Assembly (NCBI GenBank): GCA_964477745.1
Contig: CAYZEI010000001.1
Span: 393-64,392, forward strand
Reading direction: 5' to 3'
DNA: 64,000 nt
Origin: an uncultured Candidatus Saccharibacteria bacterium
GTDB lineage: Bacteria; Patescibacteriota; Doudnabacteria; UBA920
Position 1 is the stretch's first letter, and each line of letters opens with the position of its first letter. The notes under the pieces are model-generated. The model was not told where the DNA came from. It saw only the letters and a program-made list of their open reading frames with translations, and searched no databases. The position numbers and the translations under genes were made by a program. Of this stretch, positions 3,832 through 61,429 are shown piece by piece.

Positions 3832-3900
3832 CTTATAGGTCTTATAGGTCTTATAGGTCTTATAGGTCTTATAGGTCTTATAGGTCTTATGTCGCCTATA
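3832..3900. repeat. Tandem 9-bp repeat (CTTATAGGT x6 perfect plus one variant) ending in a short inverted repeat, directly abutting the start codon of the NTase gene
   Basis: Read directly: 3832-3885 holds six perfect CTTATAGGT units. Then CTTATGTCG, then CCTATAAG, which is the reverse complement of CTTATAGG. Plus ORF 3807..4007 is just this repeat translated as SYRSYR.... Confidence 0.85.
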
Positions 3901-4240
3901 AGCCTAGTCTGTCTAATGTTATTTCGTCCCACTCATCAAAATCAATTTCCTTAAAGACCCGAATTTTGTGGGAAAATTCGGTTTCGGAAAATTTATATTG
4001 CGCCTGAGCAGACTGCCCGGCGCGATGGGAAAACAGTTCTTTTTTTTCTAAGACTACAGGTTTATTTTCTCTTATAACTTTAAATTTTCCGGCAGGGTTG
4101 GTAAAAATTAAAATGTCTTGTGTTCCGGAAATAACGGGCCCGTCTTGCGTGTCCATAACCAAATCTTCTTTGGACAGCGTAACAAATTTAAAATGTTTTT
4201 GGGCAGTATTTACTAAATCCTGCCATTTGTCGTCTTGCAT
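3896..4240 (-). CDS. Hypothetical protein (114 aa)
   Basis: ORF only. No recognisable motif. Confidence 0.35.
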   Translation of the reverse strand: MQDDKWQDLVNTAQKHFKFVTLSKEDLVMDTQDGPVISGTQDILIFTNPAGKFKVIRENKPVVLEKKELFSHRAGQSAQAQYKFSETEFSHKIRVFKEIDFDEWDEITLDRLGL

Positions 4241-4341
4241 ATTTTACGAAGTACGAAACTTTACGAACTTACGAATTCTGGGACTACTGTACGTGTGTCT
4301 TTCGTACGTTCGTACCTATTCGTACTTCGTAAAGTCATTAA
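4241..4341. repeat. Nested-hairpin intergenic element, family 1 (TTACGAAGTACGAA ... TTCGTACTTCGTAA), complete copy
   Basis: Outer arms TTTTACGAAGTACGAA / TTCGTACTTCGTAAA and inner arms TTTACGAACTTACGAA / TTTCGTACGTTCGTAC surround a roughly 24-nt loop. The element exactly fills the gap between the stop of 4342..4560 and the start codon of 3896..4240. Homologous copies lie at 33482..33566, 19245..19279 plus 19682..19721, and a degenerate copy near 17230..17290. Confidence 0.8.
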
Positions 4342-4560
4342 TTATTGCAACAACGCCCCGTAGCTACCGGAAATAGAACTAAAGGCTATGGGTAAAATAA
4401 ATAAAGCAGCCAGTATCGGCAACACTACCAAAACAATGGTAATGTACAAAGACCACTTCATATAATTCTTGGTCTTGCGGGTATTCTCTAAAATTTCCGC
4501 CAATACTTCCTCAGTAGATAAAGTTTTTGTTTGCACTTGCTCTGTTTGATTTATTTCCAT
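4342..4560 (-). CDS. Small membrane protein (72 aa, one C-terminal TM helix)
   Basis: Hydrophobic segment LYITIVLVVLPILAALFILPIAF. No homology assignable. Confidence 0.4.
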   Translation of the reverse strand: MEINQTEQVQTKTLSTEEVLAEILENTRKTKNYMKWSLYITIVLVVLPILAALFILPIAFSSISGSYGALLQ

Positions 4561-8958: not shown

Positions 8959-9053
8959 AAAAGCGATCCTAATCCCCGAATAGCATCCGAATTATCCGAA
9001 TGGGCCCAATTCGGGTCATTCGTGTTTAATTCGTTGTATTCGGATCGGGTTAA

Positions 9054-17154: not shown

Positions 17155-17286
17155 AAATTAATTGTCCATAATTGATCAAAATTGACCATGACTGATCAGA
17201 ATTTTGTTTCAACCTTAATTGATATTATTGTTTCGTATGTTCGCCTGCCTGCCGGTAGGCAGGTATGAATTCGTACTTCGTAAAAT

Positions 17287-17733
17287 CTATAACTTCTTCA
17301 ACTCTTCTTTAAACTCGTCCACATCTTCAAACTGTCTGTATACTGCCGCGAACCTGACATATGCTACCTTGTCTGCTTTCTTTAAAGTCTTCATCACTAT
17401 CTCACCAATTTCCGAACTCTTAATTTCTCCGTCCTTAGCTTTACGCTGAATGTCTATTTCTATAGAGGAAAGGAGTTTCCGTCGCTTGTCATCAGTGCAG
17501 GGGCGTTTGTCTAATGGCAGGCGTAAAGCTCGTTCCAGCTTTTCTTTAGAGAATGTTTGCTTACTACCATCCTTTTTAACTACCGACAATCCTAGAATTT
17601 CTATTTCCTCGTAAGTACTAAAGCGGAACTCGCATTTTTCACATTCCCTCCGCCTACGAATCGCATCCCCCTCTTCTACCGGTCGACTGTCTAACACTTT
17701 AGTATCTTCAAACTGGCAATTGGGACAACGCAT
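17287..17733 (-). CDS. nrdR: Transcriptional repressor NrdR
   Basis: MRCPNCQFEDTKVLDSRPVEEGDAIRRRRECEKCEFRFSTYE (zinc ribbon) plus an ATP-cone (KVAYVRFAAVYRQFEDVDEF). Matches NrdR near-colinearly. Confidence 0.9.
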   Translation of the reverse strand: MRCPNCQFEDTKVLDSRPVEEGDAIRRRRECEKCEFRFSTYEEIEILGLSVVKKDGSKQTFSKEKLERALRLPLDKRPCTDDKRRKLLSSIEIDIQRKAKDGEIKSSEIGEIVMKTLKKADKVAYVRFAAVYRQFEDVDEFKEELKKL

Positions 17734-19244: not shown

Positions 19245-19279
19245 TTTTACGAAGTACGAAGCCATACGAACTTACGAAT
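19245..19279. repeat. Left half (outer + inner arm) of a family-1 hairpin element
   Basis: TTTTACGAAGTACGAAGCCATACGAACTTACGAAT directly abuts the stop codon of the GxxExxY gene. Confidence 0.75.
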
Positions 19280-19681
19280 CTAAGCGCTTACATTTACTAT
19301 GCGCTTATAATGTAATCCGCTTGGACCAAAATACGCCAATATCCCTAACTGCAATTTTTTTGCCACTAAATAATTATAGACCTGATCAATATGAGCTTTG
19401 GAAAATTTATCCCCTCTTTTCAACTCAACTACAACAATATTTTCAACTAAAAAATCAAAATAATTTTTTCCCACAATCTTACCTTCAAACAATATCGGGG
19501 CATACAACTGTTCTGTGTATTTTAAACCCGCCTTAGTCAACCCTACGGCAACAGCTTTTTGGTAAGTCTTTTCATATAATCCATAACCCAAACTTCCGTA
19601 CACATTTAAAAGGACACCAACGATTCTAAAGCATAGTTCGGGATAAATTAAATCCTGTCGCTTTAAAACATTTGGTGTCAT
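19280..19681 (-). CDS. GxxExxY-family protein (PD-(D/E)xK nuclease superfamily), embedded in a family-1 hairpin element
   Basis: LGYGLYEKTYQKA...GL....Q...P...G......D.LVENIVVVELK......H.DQVYNYL....LQLGILAYFG....KRIV matches the GxxExxY consensus I remember. Start and stop codons abut the two halves of the element. Confidence 0.7.
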   Translation of the reverse strand: MTPNVLKRQDLIYPELCFRIVGVLLNVYGSLGYGLYEKTYQKAVAVGLTKAGLKYTEQLYAPILFEGKIVGKNYFDFLVENIVVVELKRGDKFSKAHIDQVYNYLVAKKLQLGILAYFGPSGLHYKRIVNVSA

Positions 19682-19721
19682 TTTCGTAAGTTCGTACTTT
19701 TTTCGTACTTCGTAAAAACGA
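19682..19721. repeat. Right half (inner + outer arm) of the same family-1 element
   Basis: TTTCGTAAGTTCGTACTTTTTTCGTACTTCGTAAAAAC lies between the GxxExxY start codon and the ftsZ stop codon. Confidence 0.75.
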
Positions 19722-20909
19722 TTATTTCATTTTCTTCCGAATGAACGCCGGGATATCCAGTTCGTCTTCCGGAGTTTCATCCACACTTGGCGTTTCAATT
19801 CTGTCTATCGGTGGAGCTGGTTTTGGATTGAACATTGGCTTGCGAACTTCGGCTACCGGAATCGGATTGTTAAAAATTCTCGGCTCCGGCATTTTAACTT
19901 TCTTTGGTTCGTCATTCATTATTATAGAAGCCGGGGTCGGACGCTTACTGGATTCATCAAAGCCCGTGGCAATTACGGTAATGCGAATTTCATCGCCCAT
20001 GGTGTCGTCTATGACCGCGCCGAATTTCACTTTGGCATCAGGGTCAATGCTTCGGGTAATAACTTTGGCCGCTTCGTCTATTTCAAACATACCCAAAGAG
20101 CTACCACCGGTAATGTTAAACAGCACGCCCTTGGCGCCGTCTATGGTCATCTCTAAAAGAGGAGAATTAATAGCTGCCTTAGCGGCTTCCTGCGCGCGGT
20201 TTTCACCACTCGCTCTGCCAATACCCATAAGTGCGGTACCGGCGTCTTGCATTATGGATTTAATGTCCGCGAAGTCCGCGTTCACAATTCCGTGCGTGGT
20301 AATTAAATCTGAAATTCCGGCAATCCCCTGGCGTAAGACTTCGTCAACGGTTTTGAAAGCGTCTACCAGGGAAGTTTTTTTGTCGATGATTTGTAAAATG
20401 CGATCGTTGTGAATGGAAATAATCGCGTCGACTTTATCTTTTAAATTATCATAAGCGGTTTCGGCAACTTCTTTTCTTTTGCTACCTTCAAAAGTAAAAG
20501 GCTTGGTCACAACACCAACTGTGAGAATACCTTTGTTCTTGGCCAGCTCGGCTACAATCGGCGCTGCTCCACTACCGGTACCACCACCAAGACCGCAGGT
20601 TATAAAAACCATGTCGCCGTTTTCAATAACTTCTTCCAATTCTTCCACACTTTCTTCCGCTGCTTGCCTGCCCAATTCCGGATTCATTCCGCTTCCTAAT
20701 CCTTTAGTGGCACTTTTGCCGATATGAACTTTGCGATCGGCTTGGTTATTATGAAGAGCCTGCGCGTCGGTATTAATAGACACGAATTCCACACCCTTAA
20801 TCCCCAACTGGGTCATTCTGTTGACCGCGTTGGTTCCGGACCCGCCAATGCCAAGAACCTTAATTCTGGCAAAGGTTTCAATTTTTGGTTTGACTTCCAT
20901 TTTTTTCAT
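19722..20909 (-). CDS. ftsZ: Cell division protein FtsZ
   Basis: GGGTGSG tubulin signature, NTDAQAL, and the C-terminal peptide DIPAFIRKK (FtsA-binding tail). Confidence 0.95.
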   Translation of the reverse strand: MKKMEVKPKIETFARIKVLGIGGSGTNAVNRMTQLGIKGVEFVSINTDAQALHNNQADRKVHIGKSATKGLGSGMNPELGRQAAEESVEELEEVIENGDMVFITCGLGGGTGSGAAPIVAELAKNKGILTVGVVTKPFTFEGSKRKEVAETAYDNLKDKVDAIISIHNDRILQIIDKKTSLVDAFKTVDEVLRQGIAGISDLITTHGIVNADFADIKSIMQDAGTALMGIGRASGENRAQEAAKAAINSPLLEMTIDGAKGVLFNITGGSSLGMFEIDEAAKVITRSIDPDAKVKFGAVIDDTMGDEIRITVIATGFDESSKRPTPASIIMNDEPKKVKMPEPRIFNNPIPVAEVRKPMFNPKPAPPIDRIETPSVDETPEDELDIPAFIRKKMK

Positions 20910-32230: not shown

Positions 32231-33481
32231 CTACGGCAAAAAGGATTTAAACCATTTTCTTAATTTGGCCACGCCTTCGTTACTCATAATATTTTTTACC
32301 ATTCCGCCCAGTTCAGCCGCGGAATTTTTGGCGGAAAATTTCCCGCCCCACAAAACCAAACCAACCGCTGTGGCAAATGAGGGATCATCTACCCGGTCTA
32401 TAACTGTACTGACGTTTTGCGGTTTGCCTAAAACAGTAGGCAGGCGCAAATTCTTTTTGGCAAATTCCACCATTCCGGGCATTTTACTACCTCCACCGGT
32501 TAAGACTATTCCGGCCGGCAATTTACCGTCGCGCTGGATTTTTTTTAGCTCCGAAACCACCATTCGGAAAATTTCTTCCAAACGGGCTTCAATAATTTCT
32601 ACTACATACTGTCTGGATGTGGCCTGGTCTTCGCTTTTATCTAACTTGGATAAATCTATTTCTTCTTCTTTGGAAATTTCTCCCGGGTTACAATGCCCGT
32701 AAAGTACTTTTACTTTCTCCGCGGTTTCAATTCCACAACGCAAACCAATCGCTACGTCATTGGTAATATGCATACTACCCAAAGGTAAAACCGAAGTGTG
32801 GAGTAGATCCCCTTCTTCATAAACGGCAATGCTAGTGGTGCCGGCGCCTAAGTCTACCAAACACACGCCCAAATCTTTCTGGCGTTTGCTTAACACACTT
32901 TCGGCCGCTGCACATGGAGCCAAAACCAAATCTTCTATTTCCAAACCCGCCTGCATAACCGCACGGGTTAAATTTTTAATAAACGGCAAGCCCGCTTGGA
33001 CAATAATTGTATCTACCTCTAAACGAATCCCGCTCATACCGGCCGGATCCTTAATTCCGGTCTGTCCGTCCAACGTAAAAGTTTTGGGGAAAACATGCAA
33101 GACTTCTTTATTTTGCGGAATGGAAATGGCTTGACTGGCATCTATGCAACGGATAATATCATTTTCCGTAATTTCGCCGTCTGCTCGGGAAACGGCAATA
33201 ACGCCATGGGAAGAAACCGAGGAAATATGATTTCCACCCACCGAAACATTAGCCGCCGAGACCGGCACGCCGGTCATGCGTTCAACTTTTTCCAAAGCGG
33301 AAGAAATGGAAGAAACTGCTTCTTCAATATCTACAATAACCCCACGTCGAAGACCCGTAGAAGGCACTTCGCTGGCGCCAATAATATTAAAAGACCCGGT
33401 TTGCGAGTCCAACTTTGCCTGCACCGCGCGAACATTGGCTGTTCCAACATCTACGCCAACAATGTATTGTTCTTTAGCCAT
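32231..33481 (-). CDS. ftsA: Cell division protein FtsA
   Basis: Actin-fold ATPase motifs (VGVDVGT..., DLGAGTTSIAV, GGGS). Length and pattern match FtsA. Confidence 0.9.
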   Translation of the reverse strand: MAKEQYIVGVDVGTANVRAVQAKLDSQTGSFNIIGASEVPSTGLRRGVIVDIEEAVSSISSALEKVERMTGVPVSAANVSVGGNHISSVSSHGVIAVSRADGEITENDIIRCIDASQAISIPQNKEVLHVFPKTFTLDGQTGIKDPAGMSGIRLEVDTIIVQAGLPFIKNLTRAVMQAGLEIEDLVLAPCAAAESVLSKRQKDLGVCLVDLGAGTTSIAVYEEGDLLHTSVLPLGSMHITNDVAIGLRCGIETAEKVKVLYGHCNPGEISKEEEIDLSKLDKSEDQATSRQYVVEIIEARLEEIFRMVVSELKKIQRDGKLPAGIVLTGGGSKMPGMVEFAKKNLRLPTVLGKPQNVSTVIDRVDDPSFATAVGLVLWGGKFSAKNSAAELGGMVKNIMSNEGVAKLRKWFKSFLP

Positions 33482-33566
33482 TTTTTACGAAGTACGAATT
33501 CTTACGAACGTACGAACTTAGGGACAGAACTTTTCGTAAGTTCGTACCCTTTTCGTACTTCGTAAA
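33482..33566. repeat. Family-1 nested-hairpin element, complete copy, filling the yqeY-ftsA gap
   Basis: TTTTTACGAAGTACGAA TTC TTACGAACGTACGAA ... TTTTCGTAAGTTCGTAC CC TTTTCGTACTTCGTAAA. The arm mismatch pattern differs from copy 4241..4341. Confidence 0.8.
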
Positions 33567-34007
33567 TTACTTTAGTTTTTCTTTCAAAATTTTTGCCAAG
33601 GTACTGCCGTCGGCCGAATCTTTTAAAGTAGCCTTAAGTTTTCCCATAGCTGCGCCAAAATCTTTGGCGGTAAAATTGTTTTCTGTAATGGTTTTTTCAA
33701 TAATCGCTACCAGTTCCGCTTCCGGCATCCCGGCTGGCAAGTACTTTTCTAAAATTACGGCCTCGGCCAATTCTTTTTCTGCTAACTCGGTGCGACTGCC
33801 GGAACTAAAACTTTGAGCTGCTTCTTTGCGTCTTTTTACTTCACTGCGAATTAGCGCCAAAATATCGCTTTCCGATAAATCCTTCATTTTGGAGATCTTT
33901 TCGTTCTGGATTCTGGTTTTTAGCCCGCGCAAAACCTCTACTGCCAATTGCTCTTTAGCCTTCATGGCCACGGTTAAATCTTTTTCAATTTGAGAGAGTT
34001 CCAACAT
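33567..34007 (-). CDS. yqeY: GatB/YqeY-domain protein
   Basis: Pattern matches YqeY (AMKAKEQLAVEVLRGLKTRIQNEKI...GAAMGKLKATL.GKADGS). Adjacent to rpsU, as in Bacillus. Confidence 0.7.
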   Translation of the reverse strand: MLELSQIEKDLTVAMKAKEQLAVEVLRGLKTRIQNEKISKMKDLSESDILALIRSEVKRRKEAAQSFSSGSRTELAEKELAEAVILEKYLPAGMPEAELVAIIEKTITENNFTAKDFGAAMGKLKATLKDSADGSTLAKILKEKLK

Positions 34008-34097
34008 AGTTTGTCAGGTTATAAAGTTTGTAAAGCTCATCAAGCAATTTTACTTTTTACACTTGATGAACTTGATAACATTATAAATTTTAGCTTC
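34008..34097. repeat. Family-2 intergenic inverted-repeat element (TTATAAAGTT ... CTTGATGAACTTGATAAC)
   Basis: Fills the stop-to-start gap exactly. Copies at 34832..34929 and 36235..36332 share GTTATCAAGTTATAAAGTT / AACTTGATAAC arms. Confidence 0.75.
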
Positions 34098-34831: not shown

Positions 34832-34929
34832 GGGAATAAGTTATAAGGTTTATAAAGTCTATCAAGTTATAAAGTTATTGCCTCCACTTGATGGACTTGA
34901 TAACTTTATAAACTTTTTACTTGCTTGGA
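34832..34929. repeat. Family-2 intergenic inverted-repeat element
   Basis: AAGTTATAAGGTTTATAAAGTCTATCAAGTTATAAAGTT ... CACTTGATGGACTTGATAACTTTATAAAC. Confidence 0.75.
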
Positions 34930-36234: not shown

Positions 36235-36332
36235 AATATAAATAAGTTATCAAGTTATAAAGTTTTGCAAGTTATAAAGTTTCCGGTTCAACTTGATGAA
36301 CTTGATAACTTTAAAAACTTTCTACTTTTGTA
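36235..36332. repeat. Family-2 intergenic inverted-repeat element
   Basis: AAGTTATCAAGTTATAAAGTTTTGCAAGTTATAAAGTT ... TTCAACTTGATGAACTTGATAACTTTAAAAACTTT. Confidence 0.75.
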
Positions 36333-42436: not shown

Positions 42437-42553
42437 CGGGATAAAATAATTCCTAATATCTAATGTCTAATTTCTAATGGGTGCATCCATTAGGCATTTA
42501 TTCATTTGGGCTTGATTAGAAATTAGAAATTGAAAATTAGAAATTAATTCACT
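42437..42553. repeat. Inverted arrangement of short tandem repeats (4 x CTAATNN ... central hairpin CTAATGG-GTGCAT-CCATTAG ... 4 x ATTAGAAA/ATTGAAAA) in the dprA-capA intergenic region
   Basis: Read directly. The left array has period 7 and the right array period 8 (its complement). Family-3-like low-complexity fillers recur at 1647..1762, 12505..12639, 34428..34495 and 38966..39082. Confidence 0.7.
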
Positions 42554-44462: not shown

Positions 44463-45470
44463 TTGTCGAATTATTTTATGTATTTTAACGAGTGGAATAA
44501 AGAAGAAATAAATAAGTTAAAAAAACTTTACCCTATTATGCGCGTCAAAGACTTGACCAAATTCTTTCCTAAACGAAATAGGTATACAATAGCGGCCAAA
44601 GCACTTGCGTTAAAGCTGCCATCAGCAAAACTATGGCAGGATGAGCAAAACAAACAACTCCAAGAAAAATTTGCTAAATCTTCTAAAGAAGAACTACTAA
44701 AATTATTTCCCAATCGCACCTGGTTGGCAATTGTAGCTCAAGGGGAGAGATTAGGTATAGAAAGAAATAGAAACAAACCAAGGCTTAGAGTGAATGAAGA
44801 CTATTTTAAAAAATGGTCTCCAAATATGGCTTATGTTCTTGGTTTTATATTGTCAGATGGCTGTATTATTAAGGGAAGCCATAAAGGATATAGTGACGCC
44901 TTAAAATTCGGGGTGCAGTTAAAAGACATTGATATTCTGGAAAAAATCAAAAAGCAGTTATCATCAGCTCATTCTATATCAGTAGTCAGAAATGCCGCCT
45001 ATTTATCCATCTCCAGTCAAAAATTAGTAAATTGTCTCAAAACTTTAGGAATAACATATAAAAAAAGTTTAAAGGAGACTGTCCCACGCGTCCCTAAAAA
45101 ATACGTAAAAGATTTTGTTCGCGGGTTAATTGATGGCGATGGTGGAATTTCTATTGATTCTAATAACTACCCCACCTTAAGATTTTATGGAGGAATTAAT
45201 ACTGTAAACTTTGTCAGAAACTACTTTTGGAATAAATTTAAAGCACTCTCAAAGATTGGTAAAAAACAATCCAAGCTTGCACCAAAAATTTATCTCTGCT
45301 ATATTGCATATCGTACAAATACTGCAAAAAAGTTAATTGACCATTTGTATAAGGGTGCTGAAATATTTTTAGACAGGAAGTATAATCTTGCCTTACGGTG
45401 CGAACACATTCAAATTAGAAAAAGAAGTAACCCATCAGTCACTTATGAAAAAACAATTAATTATCGTTGA
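44463..45470 (+). CDS. Free-standing double-motif LAGLIDADG homing endonuclease with N-terminal tandem helix-turn-helix-like repeats
   Basis: LAGLIDADG motifs AYVLGFILSDGCI and FVRGLIDGDGGI about 100 aa apart. The N-terminus has two repeated modules (W..E....L..L.P.......L...FP.R.), each about 40 aa. Its 3' end overlaps the topA start by 26 bp. Confidence 0.8.
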   Translation: MSNYFMYFNEWNKEEINKLKKLYPIMRVKDLTKFFPKRNRYTIAAKALALKLPSAKLWQDEQNKQLQEKFAKSSKEELLKLFPNRTWLAIVAQGERLGIERNRNKPRLRVNEDYFKKWSPNMAYVLGFILSDGCIIKGSHKGYSDALKFGVQLKDIDILEKIKKQLSSAHSISVVRNAAYLSISSQKLVNCLKTLGITYKKSLKETVPRVPKKYVKDFVRGLIDGDGGISIDSNNYPTLRFYGGINTVNFVRNYFWNKFKALSKIGKKQSKLAPKIYLCYIAYRTNTAKKLIDHLYKGAEIFLDRKYNLALRCEHIQIRKRSNPSVTYEKTINYR

Positions 45471-47829
45471 GAGCCCCACAAAATCTAAAACCATCCAAAG
45501 ATTTTTAGGTTCCGAATATCAAGTCGAGGCCAGTATTGGTCATGTGCGAGATTTACCGAAAAGCAAAATTTCCATTGACGTAGAACATGACTTTGAACCA
45601 ACCTATATTATTCCGCTAAAAGCCAAGGAAACCGTAGCCAAACTGAAAAAACTGGCCAAGGACGCCTCCTCTATTATATTAGCGACTGATGAAGACCGCG
45701 AAGGAGAGGCTATTTCCTGGCATTTAGTGCAAGCTTTGGGTCTGGGAGACGAAGCGGAGATTGCCAAAGGCAAGGAAGACAAGCGCATAAAACGCATTGT
45801 TTTTCACGAAATTACCAAAACTGCCATTGAACAGGCGTTAAAGAACCCGCGCGATATAGACTTAAATTTAGTGGATGCCCAACAAGCCAGGCGCGTGTTG
45901 GACAGGTTGGTGGGTTATGAACTCTCGCCGTTTTTGTGGCGCAAAATCCGTTATGGTCTTTCCGCCGGTCGAGTACAATCGGTCGCGGTCCGTTTAGTAG
46001 TGGAACGGGAACGAGAAATTAAAAATTTCCAACAAGAAGAATATTGGAGTATAGAAGCTCAGCTTTCTAAACAGACCTCCGACAAAACTTTTACGGCTCG
46101 GTTGCAAAAAATCGGCGACAAGGTTGTAGGCAAAATGGACATTAATAAAGAAGTTGAGGCCAAAAAAATTGTTACAGATTTAGCCGGTGCCCAATACCAA
46201 ATTCAAGATATTTCTACCAAAGAAGTAAAAAGAAATCCGTCGGCTCCATTTACCACTTCTACCCTGCAACAAGAAGCGGCGCGCAAATTCGGTATGTCCG
46301 CCAAGCAAACCATGGTCATTGCTCAACAGCTGTATGAAGGCGTAAAATTGGGCGAAGAGGGTCATCAAGGTTTGATTACTTACATGAGAACCGACAGTTT
46401 AAATTTAGCGCAGTCAGCCTTACAGGCTATTAAGCAAGTAGTGAGCGCAGAATTTGGCAAAGAGTATTCACTTTCTGAACCGCGACATTTTACCAACAAA
46501 TCCAAAGGCGCGCAGGAAGCACACGAAGCTATTCGTCCAACCGATGTGTTAAGAAAACCTAGTGACATTAAAGAGCACCTAGACAAAGGTCAATACAAAG
46601 TTTACGACCTAATTTGGAAACGCACTATCGCCTGCCAAATGGCGCCGGCCGTGCTGGAACAAACTGCAGTAGACATTGTAGCAAGTAGCAAGAATCAAAT
46701 ATCAAGCGAATACATTTTCCGCGCCAACGGACAAACTATAAAATTTGACGGTTTTATTCGTGCTTACACCGAAGGACAAGACGAAAAAGCCGAAGACGAA
46801 ATCGAAGGCGTTTTGCCGGAACTGACTTTGGAAGAAATATTAAAATTACACGAACTCTTGCCGTTGCAACACTTTACCGAACCGCCGGCCAGATACTCTG
46901 ACGCCACTTTAATTAAAGCCTTAGAAGCCCATGGCGTCGGCCGTCCTTCCACTTATGCTCCAACTCTCTCCACTATTCAAGACCGAGGCTATGTAGACAA
47001 AGTAGATAAAAAATATAGCCCGACCGAAGAAGGTTTTTTGGTTAATGATATGCTGGTAGAAAATTTTCCGGAAATTGTAGATATTAATTTTACTTCCCAT
47101 ATTGAAGAAGGTTTTGACAATATTGCGGAAGGTAAAATCAAATGGGTAGAGGTCATGAAAGAATTTTACGGCCCGTTTAAAAAACATTTAATCGAAAAAG
47201 AAGCCAGTGTTCAAAAAGAAATAGAAGTTTCCACTACCCCCTGCCAGCACTGCGGTAAAATGATGTTGATAAAATACGGGCGTATGGGAAAATTCTTAGC
47301 CTGCCCGGATCCGGAAAGTAAAATTACTCAGCCAATGCCGGAGGAAGCGGCTAAAATAAAAGCCCTGGAAGAAAAAACCAAAGGGGAAATCTGCCCGATA
47401 TGCGGAAAGTTAATGCAAGTAAAACGCGGACGGTTTGGATTTTTCCTGGGTTGCCAAGACTACCCAAAATGCAAAGGAATCAGTAAAATTTGGAACAAAA
47501 CCGGCTATAAATGCCCTGCCTGTCTTGCGAAGCAAGAGGGTGAGCGAAGTCGAATCCCTAATGACCCCGCCCATTCGGCAAGCTCAGGACAATCAGATAA
47601 ACTGATTGGCGATGTAGTAGAGCGAAAATCTCGCGGTCGCGGTAAGGCCTTCTTTGGCTGTACCCGGTTCCCGGACTGTACCTTTGTAATGAACGTGAAA
47701 CCGGAAAACCAAACTGAGCTGGACGAAGCCTACAAAAATTGGAAAGCCAATCCTCCAAAGCCAAAAAAAGTTTGGAAAAAGTCCGCCAAAGGCGGATCCG
47801 CCTCAGGCGGGAAAAAAACCTCGGAATAG
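45445..47829 (+). CDS. topA: DNA topoisomerase I with C-terminal Cys4 zinc ribbons (start taken at MKKQLIIVESPTKSKTIQRFLG; the track ORF begins 57 nt upstream)
   Basis: TOPRIM N-terminus IIVESPTKSKTI, active-site region, three C-terminal CxxC...CxxC zinc ribbons. Confidence 0.9.
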   Translation: MKKQLIIVESPTKSKTIQRFLGSEYQVEASIGHVRDLPKSKISIDVEHDFEPTYIIPLKAKETVAKLKKLAKDASSIILATDEDREGEAISWHLVQALGLGDEAEIAKGKEDKRIKRIVFHEITKTAIEQALKNPRDIDLNLVDAQQARRVLDRLVGYELSPFLWRKIRYGLSAGRVQSVAVRLVVEREREIKNFQQEEYWSIEAQLSKQTSDKTFTARLQKIGDKVVGKMDINKEVEAKKIVTDLAGAQYQIQDISTKEVKRNPSAPFTTSTLQQEAARKFGMSAKQTMVIAQQLYEGVKLGEEGHQGLITYMRTDSLNLAQSALQAIKQVVSAEFGKEYSLSEPRHFTNKSKGAQEAHEAIRPTDVLRKPSDIKEHLDKGQYKVYDLIWKRTIACQMAPAVLEQTAVDIVASSKNQISSEYIFRANGQTIKFDGFIRAYTEGQDEKAEDEIEGVLPELTLEEILKLHELLPLQHFTEPPARYSDATLIKALEAHGVGRPSTYAPTLSTIQDRGYVDKVDKKYSPTEEGFLVNDMLVENFPEIVDINFTSHIEEGFDNIAEGKIKWVEVMKEFYGPFKKHLIEKEASVQKEIEVSTTPCQHCGKMMLIKYGRMGKFLACPDPESKITQPMPEEAAKIKALEEKTKGEICPICGKLMQVKRGRFGFFLGCQDYPKCKGISKIWNKTGYKCPACLAKQEGERSRIPNDPAHSASSGQSDKLIGDVVERKSRGRGKAFFGCTRFPDCTFVMNVKPENQTELDEAYKNWKANPPKPKKVWKKSAKGGSASGGKKTSE

Positions 47830-50485: not shown

Positions 50486-50574
50486 AGATAACTATTTAGG
50501 ATTTAAGATATAAGATGTAAGATATTCAATTCAGTCTAAAATCATTAATCTTATATCTGACATCTTACTTTACA

Positions 50575-51846: not shown

Positions 51847-51911
51847 ATTTAGCTTATAGCTGTTAGCTTATAGCTGTTAGGCCTAAAACCTAGAAGCTAG
51901 TAGCTAAAAGC

Positions 51912-52628: not shown

Positions 52629-52715
52629 TTTATCATCCTAGCATGCTAACATTTTATCATTTACATATGCTAATCAGAATTATTAGCTTGTTAAAATGAT
52701 AAAATGTTTAAATGA

Positions 52716-59546: not shown

Positions 59547-59618
59547 AAAACAAGCTTATAAGTGCTAGCTACTAGCTTATAGTTCCCAAGCTAACAGCCA
59601 TAAGCTAAAAACTAAACT

Positions 59619-60977: not shown

Positions 60978-61026
60978 ATACTAGATAATAGCTACTAGCT
61001 TTTGGCTTGTAGCTTGTAATTAATTT

Positions 61027-61392
61027 TTAAGCTAGTGACTGGGTCATCTTATTTAACATTTTCATGACTTCCAGTAATAAACCATCTACTTTTTCAAACT
61101 CTACAATTCCAGCATGCTTTAAGCGTTTGGCGATTTCTATTTGGGTTTCCAGCTCTGCACCAGAAGCAAAGGCAATGATCAAAAATTGTCTAAAATCTTT
61201 TCTGCTATTTCTGGTTCTTCCTTCGGCAATATTTGATGGAATAGAAACTGCACTTCTTCTTGTTTGTGAGGTTAAACCATATATTTCAGATTTTGGATAC
61301 TTGTTTGTTAACAAATAAACTTCGGTCACTAGTTCCATTGACCGCTGCCAAACCACCAGCTCCTTATACGATGTAATGATTCCGTGGGTCAT
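61027..61392 (-). CDS. Four-helix-bundle protein (TIGR02436; so-called 23S rRNA intervening-sequence protein family)
   Basis: SYKELVVWQRSMELVTEVY..T..YPKSEIYGLTSQTRRSAVSIPSNIAEGRTRNSRKDFRQFLIIAFASGAELETQ matches the family consensus closely. Confidence 0.8.
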   Translation of the reverse strand: MTHGIITSYKELVVWQRSMELVTEVYLLTNKYPKSEIYGLTSQTRRSAVSIPSNIAEGRTRNSRKDFRQFLIIAFASGAELETQIEIAKRLKHAGIVEFEKVDGLLLEVMKMLNKMTQSLA

Positions 61393-61429
61393 TAAGCTAT
61401 AAGTTATTACCTAACATCTATAAGCTAGG

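What the first reader, a model, noticed from the sequence alone, without database searches (positions are those of the whole stretch)
4241..4341. Family-1 nested-hairpin repeat placed precisely between stop and start codons of consecutive minus-strand genes
Complete copies at 4241-4341 and 33482-33566 fill the entire intergenic gap and abut the downstream start codon (CAT|TTTT on the plus strand). A degenerate right half lies at about 17230-17290, between nrdR and nrdJ. The inner-arm mismatch is swapped between copies (T-C in one, G-A in the other), indicating decay from a common ancestor rather than selection for perfect pairing. Such elements could act as transcript-processing or terminator/insulator hairpins, or be selfish MITEs with a strong target preference for gene boundaries.
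Basis: seen in the sequence. Interest (0 to 1): 0.6.

Follow-up and report, generated by a model that had tools for sequence, protein, structure and literature searches.

The report
Empty hairpin shell of nuclease cassette
The repeat is the gene-less version of a small hairpin-bounded cassette that normally carries a nuclease gene of unknown function (GxxExxY) and sits exactly between the stop and start codons of neighbouring genes, which gives a very large uncharacterised protein family a testable genomic context.

Summary
Windows 4241-4335 and 33482-33566 are nested hairpins made of four TACGAA words facing four TTCGTA words. Each fills a stop-to-start gap on the coding (minus) strand. 17230-17286 is a true remnant.

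There the same arms enclose a 133-aa GxxExxY/PDDEXK_3 nuclease gene directly after ftsZ.

The exact motif occurs in at least 13 Candidatus Doudnabacteria-type genomes, with at least 22 complete copies in one MAG. The arms are about 96% conserved, whereas the loops are about 51% conserved. In 41 of 47 two-sided cases the element lies stop-element-ATG in one polarity relative to transcription.

The same orthologous junction can hold this element, another word-hairpin family, or nothing.

About 80% of GxxExxY genes (at least 45% identical) from unrelated metagenomes and Bacteroidota carry the same TACGAA/TTCGTA inverted arrays, which end at their ATG and begin at their stop. A 23S-rRNA-IVS-protein gene occupies the post-ftsZ site in one relative, inside a similar hairpin.

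Best reading: an ORF-less, MITE-like derivative of an IVS-like selfish cassette that resides in operon transcripts. Spread at the DNA level and processing at the RNA level are inferred, not shown. It is not a terminator or a promoter, and it matches no Rfam family.

The parts
4241..4335 (-). ORF-less TACGAA nested hairpin, copy 1. Outer stem 4243-4257/4319-4333, spacers 4258-4261 and 4315-4318, inner stem 4262-4275/4301-4314, loop 4276-4300. On the minus (coding) strand it reads TAGG 5' spacer / AAGT 3' spacer, which is polarity A.
   Evidence: (I10)
33482..33566 (-). ORF-less TACGAA nested hairpin, copy 2. It lies between the stop of the YqeY-like gene (33567-33569) and the ftsA start (33479-33481). 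Outer stem 33484-33498/33552-33566, inner stem 33503-33516/33533-33546, loop 33517-33532. Polarity A on the minus strand.
   Evidence: (I2, D18)
17230..17286 (-). Remnant copy between nrdR and nrdJ. The 5' outer arm (in the sense orientation) is intact at 17270-17284. The next word is interrupted by a GC-rich mini-hairpin (17240-17262), and the rest is lost.
   Evidence: a complete element at the orthologous site L018 7229-7301; the same GC-ended insert in four PLYC copies
19246..19716 (-). Full-length cassette directly after the ftsZ stop (19722-19724). Plus-strand arms 19246-19278 (outer 19246-19260, inner 19265-19278) and 19683-19716 (inner 19683-19696, outer 19702-19716) enclose the ORF.
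   Evidence: D4, D18; long-range arm pairing in both the MFE and the centroid structure, z -5.5
19280..19681 (-). GxxExxY / PDDEXK_3 protein gene, 133 aa. Its ATG lies 1 nt after the inner arm. D76, E86, K88 and G34xxE37xxY40 are invariant in the family alignment.
   Evidence: PF13366, 1.5e-26; TIGR04256, 3.1e-27

Best explanation
The element at 4241-4335, and its twin at 33482-33566, is the gene-less form of a small hairpin-bounded selfish cassette.

The full form is present in the same window at 19246-19716. It carries a GxxExxY (PD-(D/E)XK) nuclease gene in its loop.

Both forms have four TACGAA words on the 5' side and four TTCGTA words on the 3' side. These pair as follows:
- a 15-18 bp outer stem;
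- an asymmetric 4x4 internal loop (CAGG-like on the 5' side, AAAU-like on the 3' side);
- a 14 bp inner stem with one polymorphic central position;
- a free loop of 0-29 nt, or about 400 nt when the ORF is present.

The cassette lives inside operons. It is placed between the stop codon of one gene (usually overlapping the element's first bases) and the ATG of the next gene (3-9 nt after its last base). It almost always has one polarity relative to transcription.

Shown here: the structure, the family, the link to the ORF across phyla, the positional and polarity rule, gain/loss/replacement at orthologous junctions, and copying or conversion within genomes.

Inferred:
(1) Gene-less copies multiply or are re-homogenised at the DNA level like MITEs, possibly with help from the resident nuclease or by hairpin-templated repair.
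(2) They persist because the arms zip up on the polycistronic mRNA. That brings the upstream stop next to the downstream start in an organism that largely lacks Shine-Dalgarno sites. It also forms a two-stem hairpin with an internal loop, of the kind RNase III cuts in rRNA intervening sequences and at phage T7 intercistronic sites. Either effect would make the insertion nearly harmless to the operon.
For: Structure and excess over chance.

Fourth copy with the GxxExxY ORF. The same cassette sits after ftsZ in two other genomes, with 75-79% aa identity.

These hold 62 short and 3 long paired elements, with 22 complete copies in MAG JARLHZ.

Position and polarity: 41 sense against 6 antisense among the two-sided cases. 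The stop lies 4-7 nt upstream and the ATG 3-9 nt downstream. The flank consensus is TAAnT|...|AnT.

Constraint: arms 96.4% identical at orthologous junctions, against 51% for loops and 63% for spacers. 97.6% of stem cells are Watson-Crick.

Dynamics:
- The same junction can be occupied, occupied by another word-hairpin family, or empty, as in TAAT|ATG in L077.
- Loops are at least 75% alike in 7.0% of within-genome pairs, 1.0% of between-genome pairs and 0 of 13 orthologous pairs.

Generality of the cassette:
- 4 of 4 homologues fetched with genomic context, including Bacteroidota, carry the arrays.
- 59 of 74 metagenome GxxExxY genes (about 54 of 66 after removing duplicates) have flank inverted repeats scoring at least 14, against 5 of 74 for the direct-repeat control and a shuffle mean of 7.8.
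- TACGAA occurs upstream in 48 of 67 loci and its complement downstream in 53 of 67. Word variants agree on the two sides in 43 of 48.
- 44 of 61 cassettes have co-directional ORFs on both sides, with modal gaps of about 36 nt.

IVS link: PF05635 genes sit in similar hairpins at window 61030-61392 and at the post-ftsZ site of L018. The long-range stem closes the ORF-bearing RNA.

Weak Shine-Dalgarno use: an SD-like tetramer precedes only 9 of 59 genes.
Against: - No target-site duplication or other transposition scar was found.
- The associated protein is a generic small PD-(D/E)XK nuclease. It has no solved relative by sequence and only weak fold matches, TM at most 0.49, to Cas4, lambda-exo-like enzymes, tRNA splicing endonucleases and Hjc. 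Nothing shows that it acts on the arms.
- The flanking word type (TACGAA, TACTAA, TACAAA) does not follow the protein tree. This argues against tight protein-word recognition.
- More distant homologues (28-35% identical) are flanked by direct repeats rather than inverted repeats.
- G-U against A-C mismatches show no strand bias (11 vs 7), so no sequence signal separates RNA-level from DNA-level pairing.
- The estimate of arm conservation is inflated, because copies were found with an exact 22-nt arm pattern.
- There are no expression or RNA-end data.
Confidence: 0.55

Rival explanations
1. A host-selected cis-acting RNA element. On this view the hairpin is kept because it benefits the operon, as an RNase III or other processing site, a 3' stabiliser of the upstream cistron, or a device for translational coupling or occlusion. 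It would not be a selfish repeat.
For: Strong polarity relative to transcription (41 vs 6). Exact placement between stop and ATG. Arms conserved across at least 13 genomes while loops drift. Architecture of two stems plus an internal loop. Other word-hairpin families occupy equivalent junctions, as if a hairpin were wanted there.
Against: The same junctions are empty in close relatives (gaps of 1-36 nt) and essential genes tolerate this. A selected structure would not need invariant sequence, and no compensatory changes are seen within the family. The link to a horizontally spread nuclease gene, and loop sharing within genomes, point to a selfish origin.
Confidence: 0.22
2. A DNA-level array of protein-binding sites. 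The eight TACGAA words would be operators or recognition sites for a sequence-specific DNA-binding protein, such as the GxxExxY protein itself or a nucleoid or replication factor. The hairpin potential would be a by-product of a symmetric site arrangement.
For: Word repetition (2+2 per arm) is not needed for a stem. The words are invariant across species. The same word is conserved with the same protein family across phyla.
Against: Word variants switch between proteins that are 80-83% identical. The left and right arrays co-vary so as to keep complementarity (43 of 48). Polarity relative to transcription is unexplained by a symmetric DNA site. PF05635 cassettes use many different words in the same architecture.
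Confidence: 0.1
3. Palindromes generated in place. Each junction would have grown its own hairpin by template-switch or slippage mutation and mismatch correction, with no movement between loci.
For: Arms made of short repeated words. Hybrid elements with TACGAA on the left and TTAGTA on the right. Many unrelated word families at junctions.
Against: Independent origin cannot give the same 56 arm bases, the same spacer polarity and shared loop motifs (AGTTTGTCC and relatives) at dozens of unrelated junctions and in 13 genomes.
Confidence: 0.05
4. An intrinsic transcription terminator or insulator between genes.
For: A strong stem-loop lies directly after a stop codon.
Against: No U-tract on either strand, and the scan finds no terminator-like site in the elements. 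The next gene starts 3-9 nt later with no room for a promoter, and no promoter-like match lies in the elements. The elements sit inside conserved operons, for example nrdR-nrdJ, and the cassette sits in rpsG-fusA.
Confidence: 0.03

Closest known systems
Intervening sequences (IVS) of 23S rRNA, with or without an S23p / 23S_rRNA_IVP ORF
   Same: Terminal inverted repeats form a stem of about 28-30 bp with a mismatch or bulge. The stem closes a loop that is either short or carries a small ORF. The Coxiella IVS has a 28-bp stem that RNase III cuts in the middle (PMC4990558). Distribution is sporadic and suggests horizontal transfer. A PF05635 gene sits in a similar hairpin in this window (61030-61392), and another sits at the very site (after ftsZ) that holds the GxxExxY cassette here.
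   Different: IVSs are defined inside 23S rRNA helices. These elements lie between protein-coding genes, and 0 of 40 cassette loci contain rRNA. The cargo here is PF13366, not PF05635. RNase III cleavage was not tested.
REP/BIME elements with their RAYT gene (REPtrons)
   Same: Many short palindromic extragenic copies, plus a single-copy nuclease-type gene flanked by inverted copies of the same repeat. Copies are co-transcribed in operons.
   Different: REPs are palindromes of 20-40 bp with a GTAG or CGTC head (PMC3733652), and RAYTs are HUH Y1 transposases (my knowledge). Here the repeat is a 65-95 nt nested hairpin of TACGAA words, the gene is a PD-(D/E)XK protein, and the gene sits inside one hairpin rather than between two complete REPs.
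MITEs processed in transcripts, for example Neisseria Correia elements
   Same: Non-autonomous copies with conserved inverted termini and variable interiors. Presence/absence differs between relatives. Co-transcription and RNase III processing are reported for Correia elements (my knowledge).
   Different: No target-site duplication and no IS-type transposase partner. Near-exclusive placement at stop-start junctions, with polarity.
Mycobacterial interspersed repetitive units (MIRU)
   Same: They lie in intercistronic gaps of operons, in one orientation, with ends overlapping the stop and start codons of the flanking genes (my knowledge of Supply et al. 1997).
   Different: MIRUs are direct tandem repeats of 46-101 bp that encode a small coupling peptide. 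They are not hairpins and have no associated gene.
Phage T7 intercistronic RNase III sites
   Same: An intercistronic hairpin with upper and lower stems separated by an asymmetric internal loop. It is polar relative to transcription (my knowledge).
   Different: The T7 sites are unique host-processing signals of a phage, not a dispersed repeat family. Cleavage was not tested here.
Integron attC sites
   Same: Nested imperfect palindrome (two box pairs, an unpaired spacer and a variable terminal loop), 57-141 nt long, lying directly behind an ORF (my knowledge).
   Different: No GTTRRRY core, no integrase and no cassette array. The neighbours are housekeeping genes.

Membership tests
MITE (non-autonomous inverted-repeat element) | Many dispersed copies with conserved inverted termini and a variable interior | tested here: met
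   62 short paired copies in 80 loci. Arms are at least 90% invariant; loops are 0-29 nt and variable.
MITE (non-autonomous inverted-repeat element) | Presence/absence at orthologous sites | tested here: met
   The same junction is filled, filled by another family, or empty.
MITE (non-autonomous inverted-repeat element) | Target-site duplication | tested here: not met
   The flanks AnT / AnT extend the palindrome and are not direct repeats. Comparing filled with empty sites shows no duplication.
MITE (non-autonomous inverted-repeat element) | Autonomous partner with the same termini that encodes a transposase | tested here: inconclusive
   A partner with the same arms exists (19246-19716, L036, L071). 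Its ORF is a PD-(D/E)XK protein of unknown function, not a known transposase.
REP / RAYT system | REP palindrome of 20-40 bp with a GTAG or CGTC head | tested here: not met
   The arms are TTTACGAAGTACGAA... with no GTAG or CGTC head.
REP / RAYT system | Associated HUH Y1 transposase (RAYT) | tested here: not met
   The associated ORF matches PF13366 / TIGR04256 only.
23S rRNA intervening sequence | Terminal inverted repeats forming a long stem that closes a short or ORF-bearing loop | tested here: met
23S rRNA intervening sequence | Located within a 23S rRNA helix | tested here: not met
   The only Rfam matches in the window are two tRNAs. All copies lie between protein-coding genes, and 0 of 40 cassette loci contain rRNA.
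23S rRNA intervening sequence | Excision by RNase III | not testable with these tools
   Needs an in vitro cleavage assay or RNA end mapping.
Intrinsic terminator | GC-rich stem followed by a U-tract | tested here: not met
   No terminator-like site in either element. The tails are A-rich.
Integron attC | GTTRRRY core, an integrase and a cassette array | tested here: not met
   The arms have no such core. The neighbours are ftsA, nrdJ, ftsZ and similar genes.
MIRU | Intercistronic, polar, overlapping the flanking stop and start codons | tested here: met
MIRU | Direct tandem repeat units that encode a small ORF | tested here: not met
   The element is an inverted repeat, not a tandem direct repeat.
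GxxExxY / PDDEXK_3 (the ORF at 19280-19681) | Scores above the curated cut-offs of TIGR04256 and PF13366 | tested here: met
   95.3 bits against a cut-off of 35; 93.5 bits against a cut-off of 22.
GxxExxY / PDDEXK_3 (the ORF at 19280-19681) | PD-(D/E)XK catalytic residues and fold | tested here: met
   D76, E86 and K88 are invariant. The model has pLDDT 89.7, and its best fold matches are PD-(D/E)XK enzymes. Activity was not tested.

The most novel reading that the evidence does not exclude
GxxExxY genes with their TACGAA arms, 23S_rRNA_IVP genes with their own word-arms, and the many gene-less word-hairpins would together form one class of mobile element that lives inside transcripts. The classical rRNA intervening sequences would be only the rRNA-resident subset of this class. 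In this reading the PD-(D/E)XK protein moves or homes the cassette by cutting hairpin or cruciform DNA at the word arrays, and the arms make the insertion phenotypically silent at the RNA level.
Probability: 0.3. Interest if true: 0.85.

Novelty: new variant of a known kind. Interest (0 to 1): 0.7.

Why it matters
GxxExxY/PDDEXK_3 is a very large family: 20,415 representatives at 50% identity match at E up to 1e-3. Its function is unknown; the 2012 PD-(D/E)XK survey lists it as 'Unknown' with multiple transfers (PMC3424549).

This work shows that a whole subfamily is built into a fixed hairpin cassette at operon junctions, and that the cassette sheds gene-less copies. That gives the family a concrete hypothesis and concrete substrates to test, namely TACGAA hairpin DNA or RNA.

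It also offers an origin for rRNA intervening sequences. An IVS-protein gene and a GxxExxY gene swap at one junction inside equivalent hairpins.

For Patescibacteria it explains a large share of the short intergenic DNA. It also points to a possible way in which genomes that rarely use Shine-Dalgarno sites tolerate insertions between coupled genes.

No matching description turned up in the open-access library. That library is incomplete, so prior description cannot be excluded.

Tried and rejected
- Rfam at gathering thresholds on the whole window and on 40 cassette loci gave only tRNAs.
- The promoter and terminator scans found nothing in the elements.
- Phage origin: no match to the arm pattern in viral contigs and no protein match in phage records.
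- Target-site duplication: none.
- G-U against A-C asymmetry, used to tell RNA-level from DNA-level selection, was uninformative at 11 vs 7.
- Co-phylogeny of word type with protein: none, because the word types are polyphyletic.
- Extension to distant homologues (28-35% identical) on plasmids: one has a short inverted repeat and three have direct word repeats, so the TACGAA rule is limited to the closer subfamily.
- A TAnnnT -10 box at the 3' end of the element with a leaderless start was considered and rejected. In both window copies it abuts the ATG with no spacing.
- TIGR arrays, which turned up in a literature search, were considered and rejected. These are single hairpins, not tandem guide arrays.
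- L050 (Bacteroidales) carries only one stray arm.

Full report
**1. The observation**

Copy 1 is a 95-nt element at 4241-4335:
- outer arms TTTACGAAGTACGAA (4243-4257) and TTCGTACTTCGTAAA (4319-4333);
- inner arms TACGAACTTACGAA (4262-4275) and TTCGTACGTTCGTA (4301-4314);
- 4-nt spacers and a 25-nt loop.

It lies between the CAT of ORF 3896-4240 (minus strand) and the stop of ORF 4342-4560 (minus strand).

Copy 2 (33482-33566) fills the whole 85-nt gap between the ftsA start (33479-33481) and the stop of a YqeY-like gene (33567-33569).

This is well beyond chance:
- The 14-mer TTACGAAGTACGAA occurs 7 times exactly. Shuffles gave 0.41 matches on average, even with two mismatches allowed.
- Both strands of both copies fold at -34 to -41 kcal/mol with z about -6.
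- 27 of the window's 45 TACGAA/TTCGTA hexamers lie in four clusters with the pattern ++++----.

The inner-stem mismatch is T/C in one copy and G/A in the other, as reported.

**2.

A fourth instance has its two halves 400 nt apart (19246-19278 and 19683-19716). The halves enclose a 133-aa ORF (19280-19681, minus strand), and the cassette sits directly after the ftsZ stop.
- The ORF is a GxxExxY / PDDEXK_3 protein (PF13366, 1.5e-26; TIGR04256, 3.1e-27).
- D76, E86, K88 and the GxxExxY motif are invariant.
- The structure model is confident (pLDDT 89.7).
- Its best fold matches are generic PD-(D/E)XK enzymes, with TM at most 0.49. No solved relative is detectable by sequence.
- Folded as one 491-nt RNA, the arms pair over the whole ORF in both the MFE and the centroid structure (z -5.5). 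The AUG lies just inside the stem.

**3. The family elsewhere**

Nearly all are Candidatus Doudnabacteria-type Patescibacteria MAGs, from at least 13 assemblies. The window's own genome is not among them. Its ftsZ, nrdJ and nrdR are 82-90% identical to theirs.

The loci hold 62 distinct short paired elements (64-93 nt) and 3 long ones (469-516 nt). One MAG alone has 22 complete copies.

All three long ones carry orthologous GxxExxY genes (75-79% aa identity) at the same place after ftsZ.

In 59 oriented copies, every arm position is at least about 90% invariant. Loops range from 0 to 29 nt, and the two spacers differ from each other. One side is CAGG-like and the other AAAU-like, which gives the element a polarity.

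The central inner-stem position is paired in 24 of 59 copies and mismatched in 35 of 59. The swapped mismatch is therefore a family polymorphism and not decay. The other stem cells are 97.6% Watson-Crick.

**4. Position and polarity**

With polarity set by the spacers, 41 of the 47 copies that have a long ORF on both sides lie as follows: upstream stop, 4-7 nt, element, 3-9 nt, ATG, all on the strand of both genes. Six are antisense.

The flank consensus is T-A-A-n-T before the element and A-n-T after it, so the stop codon usually overlaps the base of the palindrome.

Both short copies in the window have the common polarity on the minus strand, which is the coding strand.

Genes in the window rarely have a Shine-Dalgarno motif (9 of 59, against a background of 6%). 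Their leaders are 74% A+T.

No terminator-like or promoter-like consensus site lies in either element. Rfam has no matching family.

**5. Dynamics**

I took the last and first 70 residues of the flanking genes to find orthologous junctions in the other loci. The same junction can hold:
- a TACGAA element;
- a different hairpin of similar size built from other words;
- nothing, with gaps of 1-36 nt, for example TAAT|ATG in L077.

At one junction two genomes carry the element in opposite polarity (L052 and L002).

The nrdR-nrdJ gap has a complete 73-nt element in L018. The window retains only one outer arm there, plus a GC-rich mini-hairpin. That mini-hairpin matches the ends of a second insert of about 100 nt. 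In four copies of one genome this insert sits exactly between TTCG and TACTTCGTAA of the outer arm, without duplication.

Downstream of the 114-aa gene, the window has a (TCTTATAGG)n hairpin where L054 and L075 have a TACGAA element.

At orthologous junctions the arms are 96.4% identical, the loops 51% and the spacers 63%. The arm figure is inflated, because copies were found through their arms.

Loops are at least 75% alike in:
- 7.0% of pairs at different junctions within one genome;
- 1.0% of pairs between genomes;
- 0 of 13 orthologous pairs.

Copies are therefore copied or converted within genomes more recently than the species split.

No target-site duplication is visible.

**6. The link to GxxExxY is general**

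The link holds well beyond Doudnabacteria.
- Four homologues fetched with their contigs all have arrays of TACGAA (or TACTAA) words that end at their ATG and arrays of the complement that begin at their stop. Two are from Bacteroidota and one is from a 1.2-Mb contig.
- In a metagenome scan with a family alignment, 59 of 74 genes have flank inverted repeats scoring at least 14. After removing duplicates this is about 54 of 66. The direct-repeat control gives 5 of 74, and the shuffle mean is 7.8.
- TACGAA is present in the 80 nt upstream in 48 of 67 loci, and its complement in the 80 nt downstream in 53 of 67.
- Where both sides have a dominant word, it is the same word in 43 of 48. This includes rarer variants such as TACTAA, TACAGA and TACAAA.
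- 44 of 61 cassettes have co-directional ORFs on both sides. The modal gaps are about 36 nt, which is the length of one four-word arm set.
- One example sits between rpsG and the next gene of the str operon.
- None of 40 loci contains rRNA.

There are limits:
- Word type does not follow the protein tree.
- Four distant homologues (28-35% identical) on plasmids have a short inverted repeat in one case and direct word repeats in three.
- The subfamily is absent from the phage collections.
- The family as a whole has 20,415 representatives at 50% identity, and it is listed as of unknown function (PMC3424549).

**7. The link to rRNA intervening sequences**

At the post-ftsZ site, L018 carries a gene of the 23S_rRNA_IVP family instead of the GxxExxY cassette (PF05635, 8.5e-38). 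It has an in-frame stop and is flanked by inverted arrays of TAAGCT-type words.

The window itself has such a gene at 61030-61392 (2.9e-36), flanked by TAGCT-word inverted repeats. Three further examples in the loci have their own words.

In two metagenome loci the TACGAA cassette is nested inside a TAGCT-word hairpin.

The Coxiella IVS has a 28-bp terminal stem with a mismatch and a bulge. It carries a gene of this family in the loop, and RNase III cuts it in mid-stem (PMC4990558).

The elements here share that architecture, but they lie in operon mRNAs rather than in rRNA.

**8. Interpretation**

Shown here:
- The flagged repeat is the ORF-less form of the GxxExxY hairpin cassette.
- It belongs to a dispersed, polar, junction-specific family that is gained, lost, replaced and copied within genomes.

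Inferred:
- It multiplies like a MITE. The agent is unknown. The resident nuclease and hairpin-templated repair are both candidates.
- It is tolerated because the transcribed arms pair. Pairing brings the stop and start codons together and forms a substrate of the RNase III type. The asymmetric internal loop and the polarity fit a strand-specific RNA feature.

Rivals are a host-selected processing or coupling hairpin, a DNA protein-binding array, palindrome growth in place, and a terminator. The last two are disfavoured by shared loops across loci and by the lack of a U-tract.

I found no description of this cassette in the open-access library. That search cannot exclude prior work.

Noticed in passing
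window 3832-3895; 8959-9053; 34008-34097; 34832-34929; 36235-36332; 42437-42553; 50486-50574; 51847-51911; 52629-52715; 59547-59618: Many other intercistronic gaps between co-directional genes are filled by hairpins. Each is built from its own short repeated word, for example (TCTTATAGG)x7, ATCCGAAT, TTATAAAGTT/ATCAAGTT, TCTAAT, TAAGAT and TAGCT. The TACGAA family is one of many such families in this genome.
   Followed up: partly
window 60978-61429 (ORF 61030-61392, minus strand): A 121-aa gene of the 23S rRNA intervening-sequence protein family (PF05635, 2.9e-36). It lies between protein-coding genes and is flanked by inverted arrays of TAGCT-type words. This is the same cassette architecture with a different cargo.
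   Followed up: partly
window 17240-17262; L028 1198-1376, L031 1607-1783, L035 4569-4741, L044 3034-3219: A second small element of about 100 nt, with ends CCYGCCTGCC...GGCGGGMAGG. In four copies of one genome it is inserted exactly between TTCG and TACTTCGTAA of the TACGAA outer arm, with no duplication. The GC mini-hairpin in the window's nrdR-nrdJ remnant looks like what is left of one.
   Followed up: partly
L018 5009-5371: The IVS-protein gene at the post-ftsZ site of this relative has an in-frame TAA at codon 7. It is probably a pseudogene.
   Followed up: no
L003 336-454; L060 1227-1341; L074 1488-1633; L097 and L098 cassette flanks: Hybrid elements whose left arm uses TACGAA words while the right arm uses TTAGTA (the TACTAA type), or in which the two words are mixed within an arm. 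This suggests recombination between families, or word-by-word conversion.
   Followed up: no
L166, L125, L142, L147, L101, L156 (metagenome loci): The GxxExxY cassette recurs directly after a gene ending ...AFAHFAW (rpsG in L125, which follows rpsL) and before a gene starting ...YPIEKIRNIG (EF-G-like, judged from memory). The str operon junction seems to be a repeated landing site.
   Followed up: partly
window 44463-45470 (+): A 335-aa ORF with a weak LAGLIDADG-like match (PF14528, 9.6e-5; it contains the motif LIDGDGG). It lies directly upstream of a long topoisomerase-like ORF (45388-47829) and overlaps it.
   Followed up: no
window, all gene starts: Only 9 of 59 genes have a Shine-Dalgarno-like tetramer at -20 to -4 (background 6%). 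Leaders are 74% A+T.
   Followed up: yes
L169 (Fusobacteria plasmid), L170 (Prevotella), L171 (Persicobacter): Distant GxxExxY homologues (28-35% identical) are flanked by direct repeats of word arrays rather than inverted repeats, for example ACAAATC words in Prevotella.
   Followed up: no
representative library: Roughly 25 of the best 150 GxxExxY representatives are about 260-270 aa long with two matched stretches, that is, tandem fusions of two GxxExxY domains.
   Followed up: no
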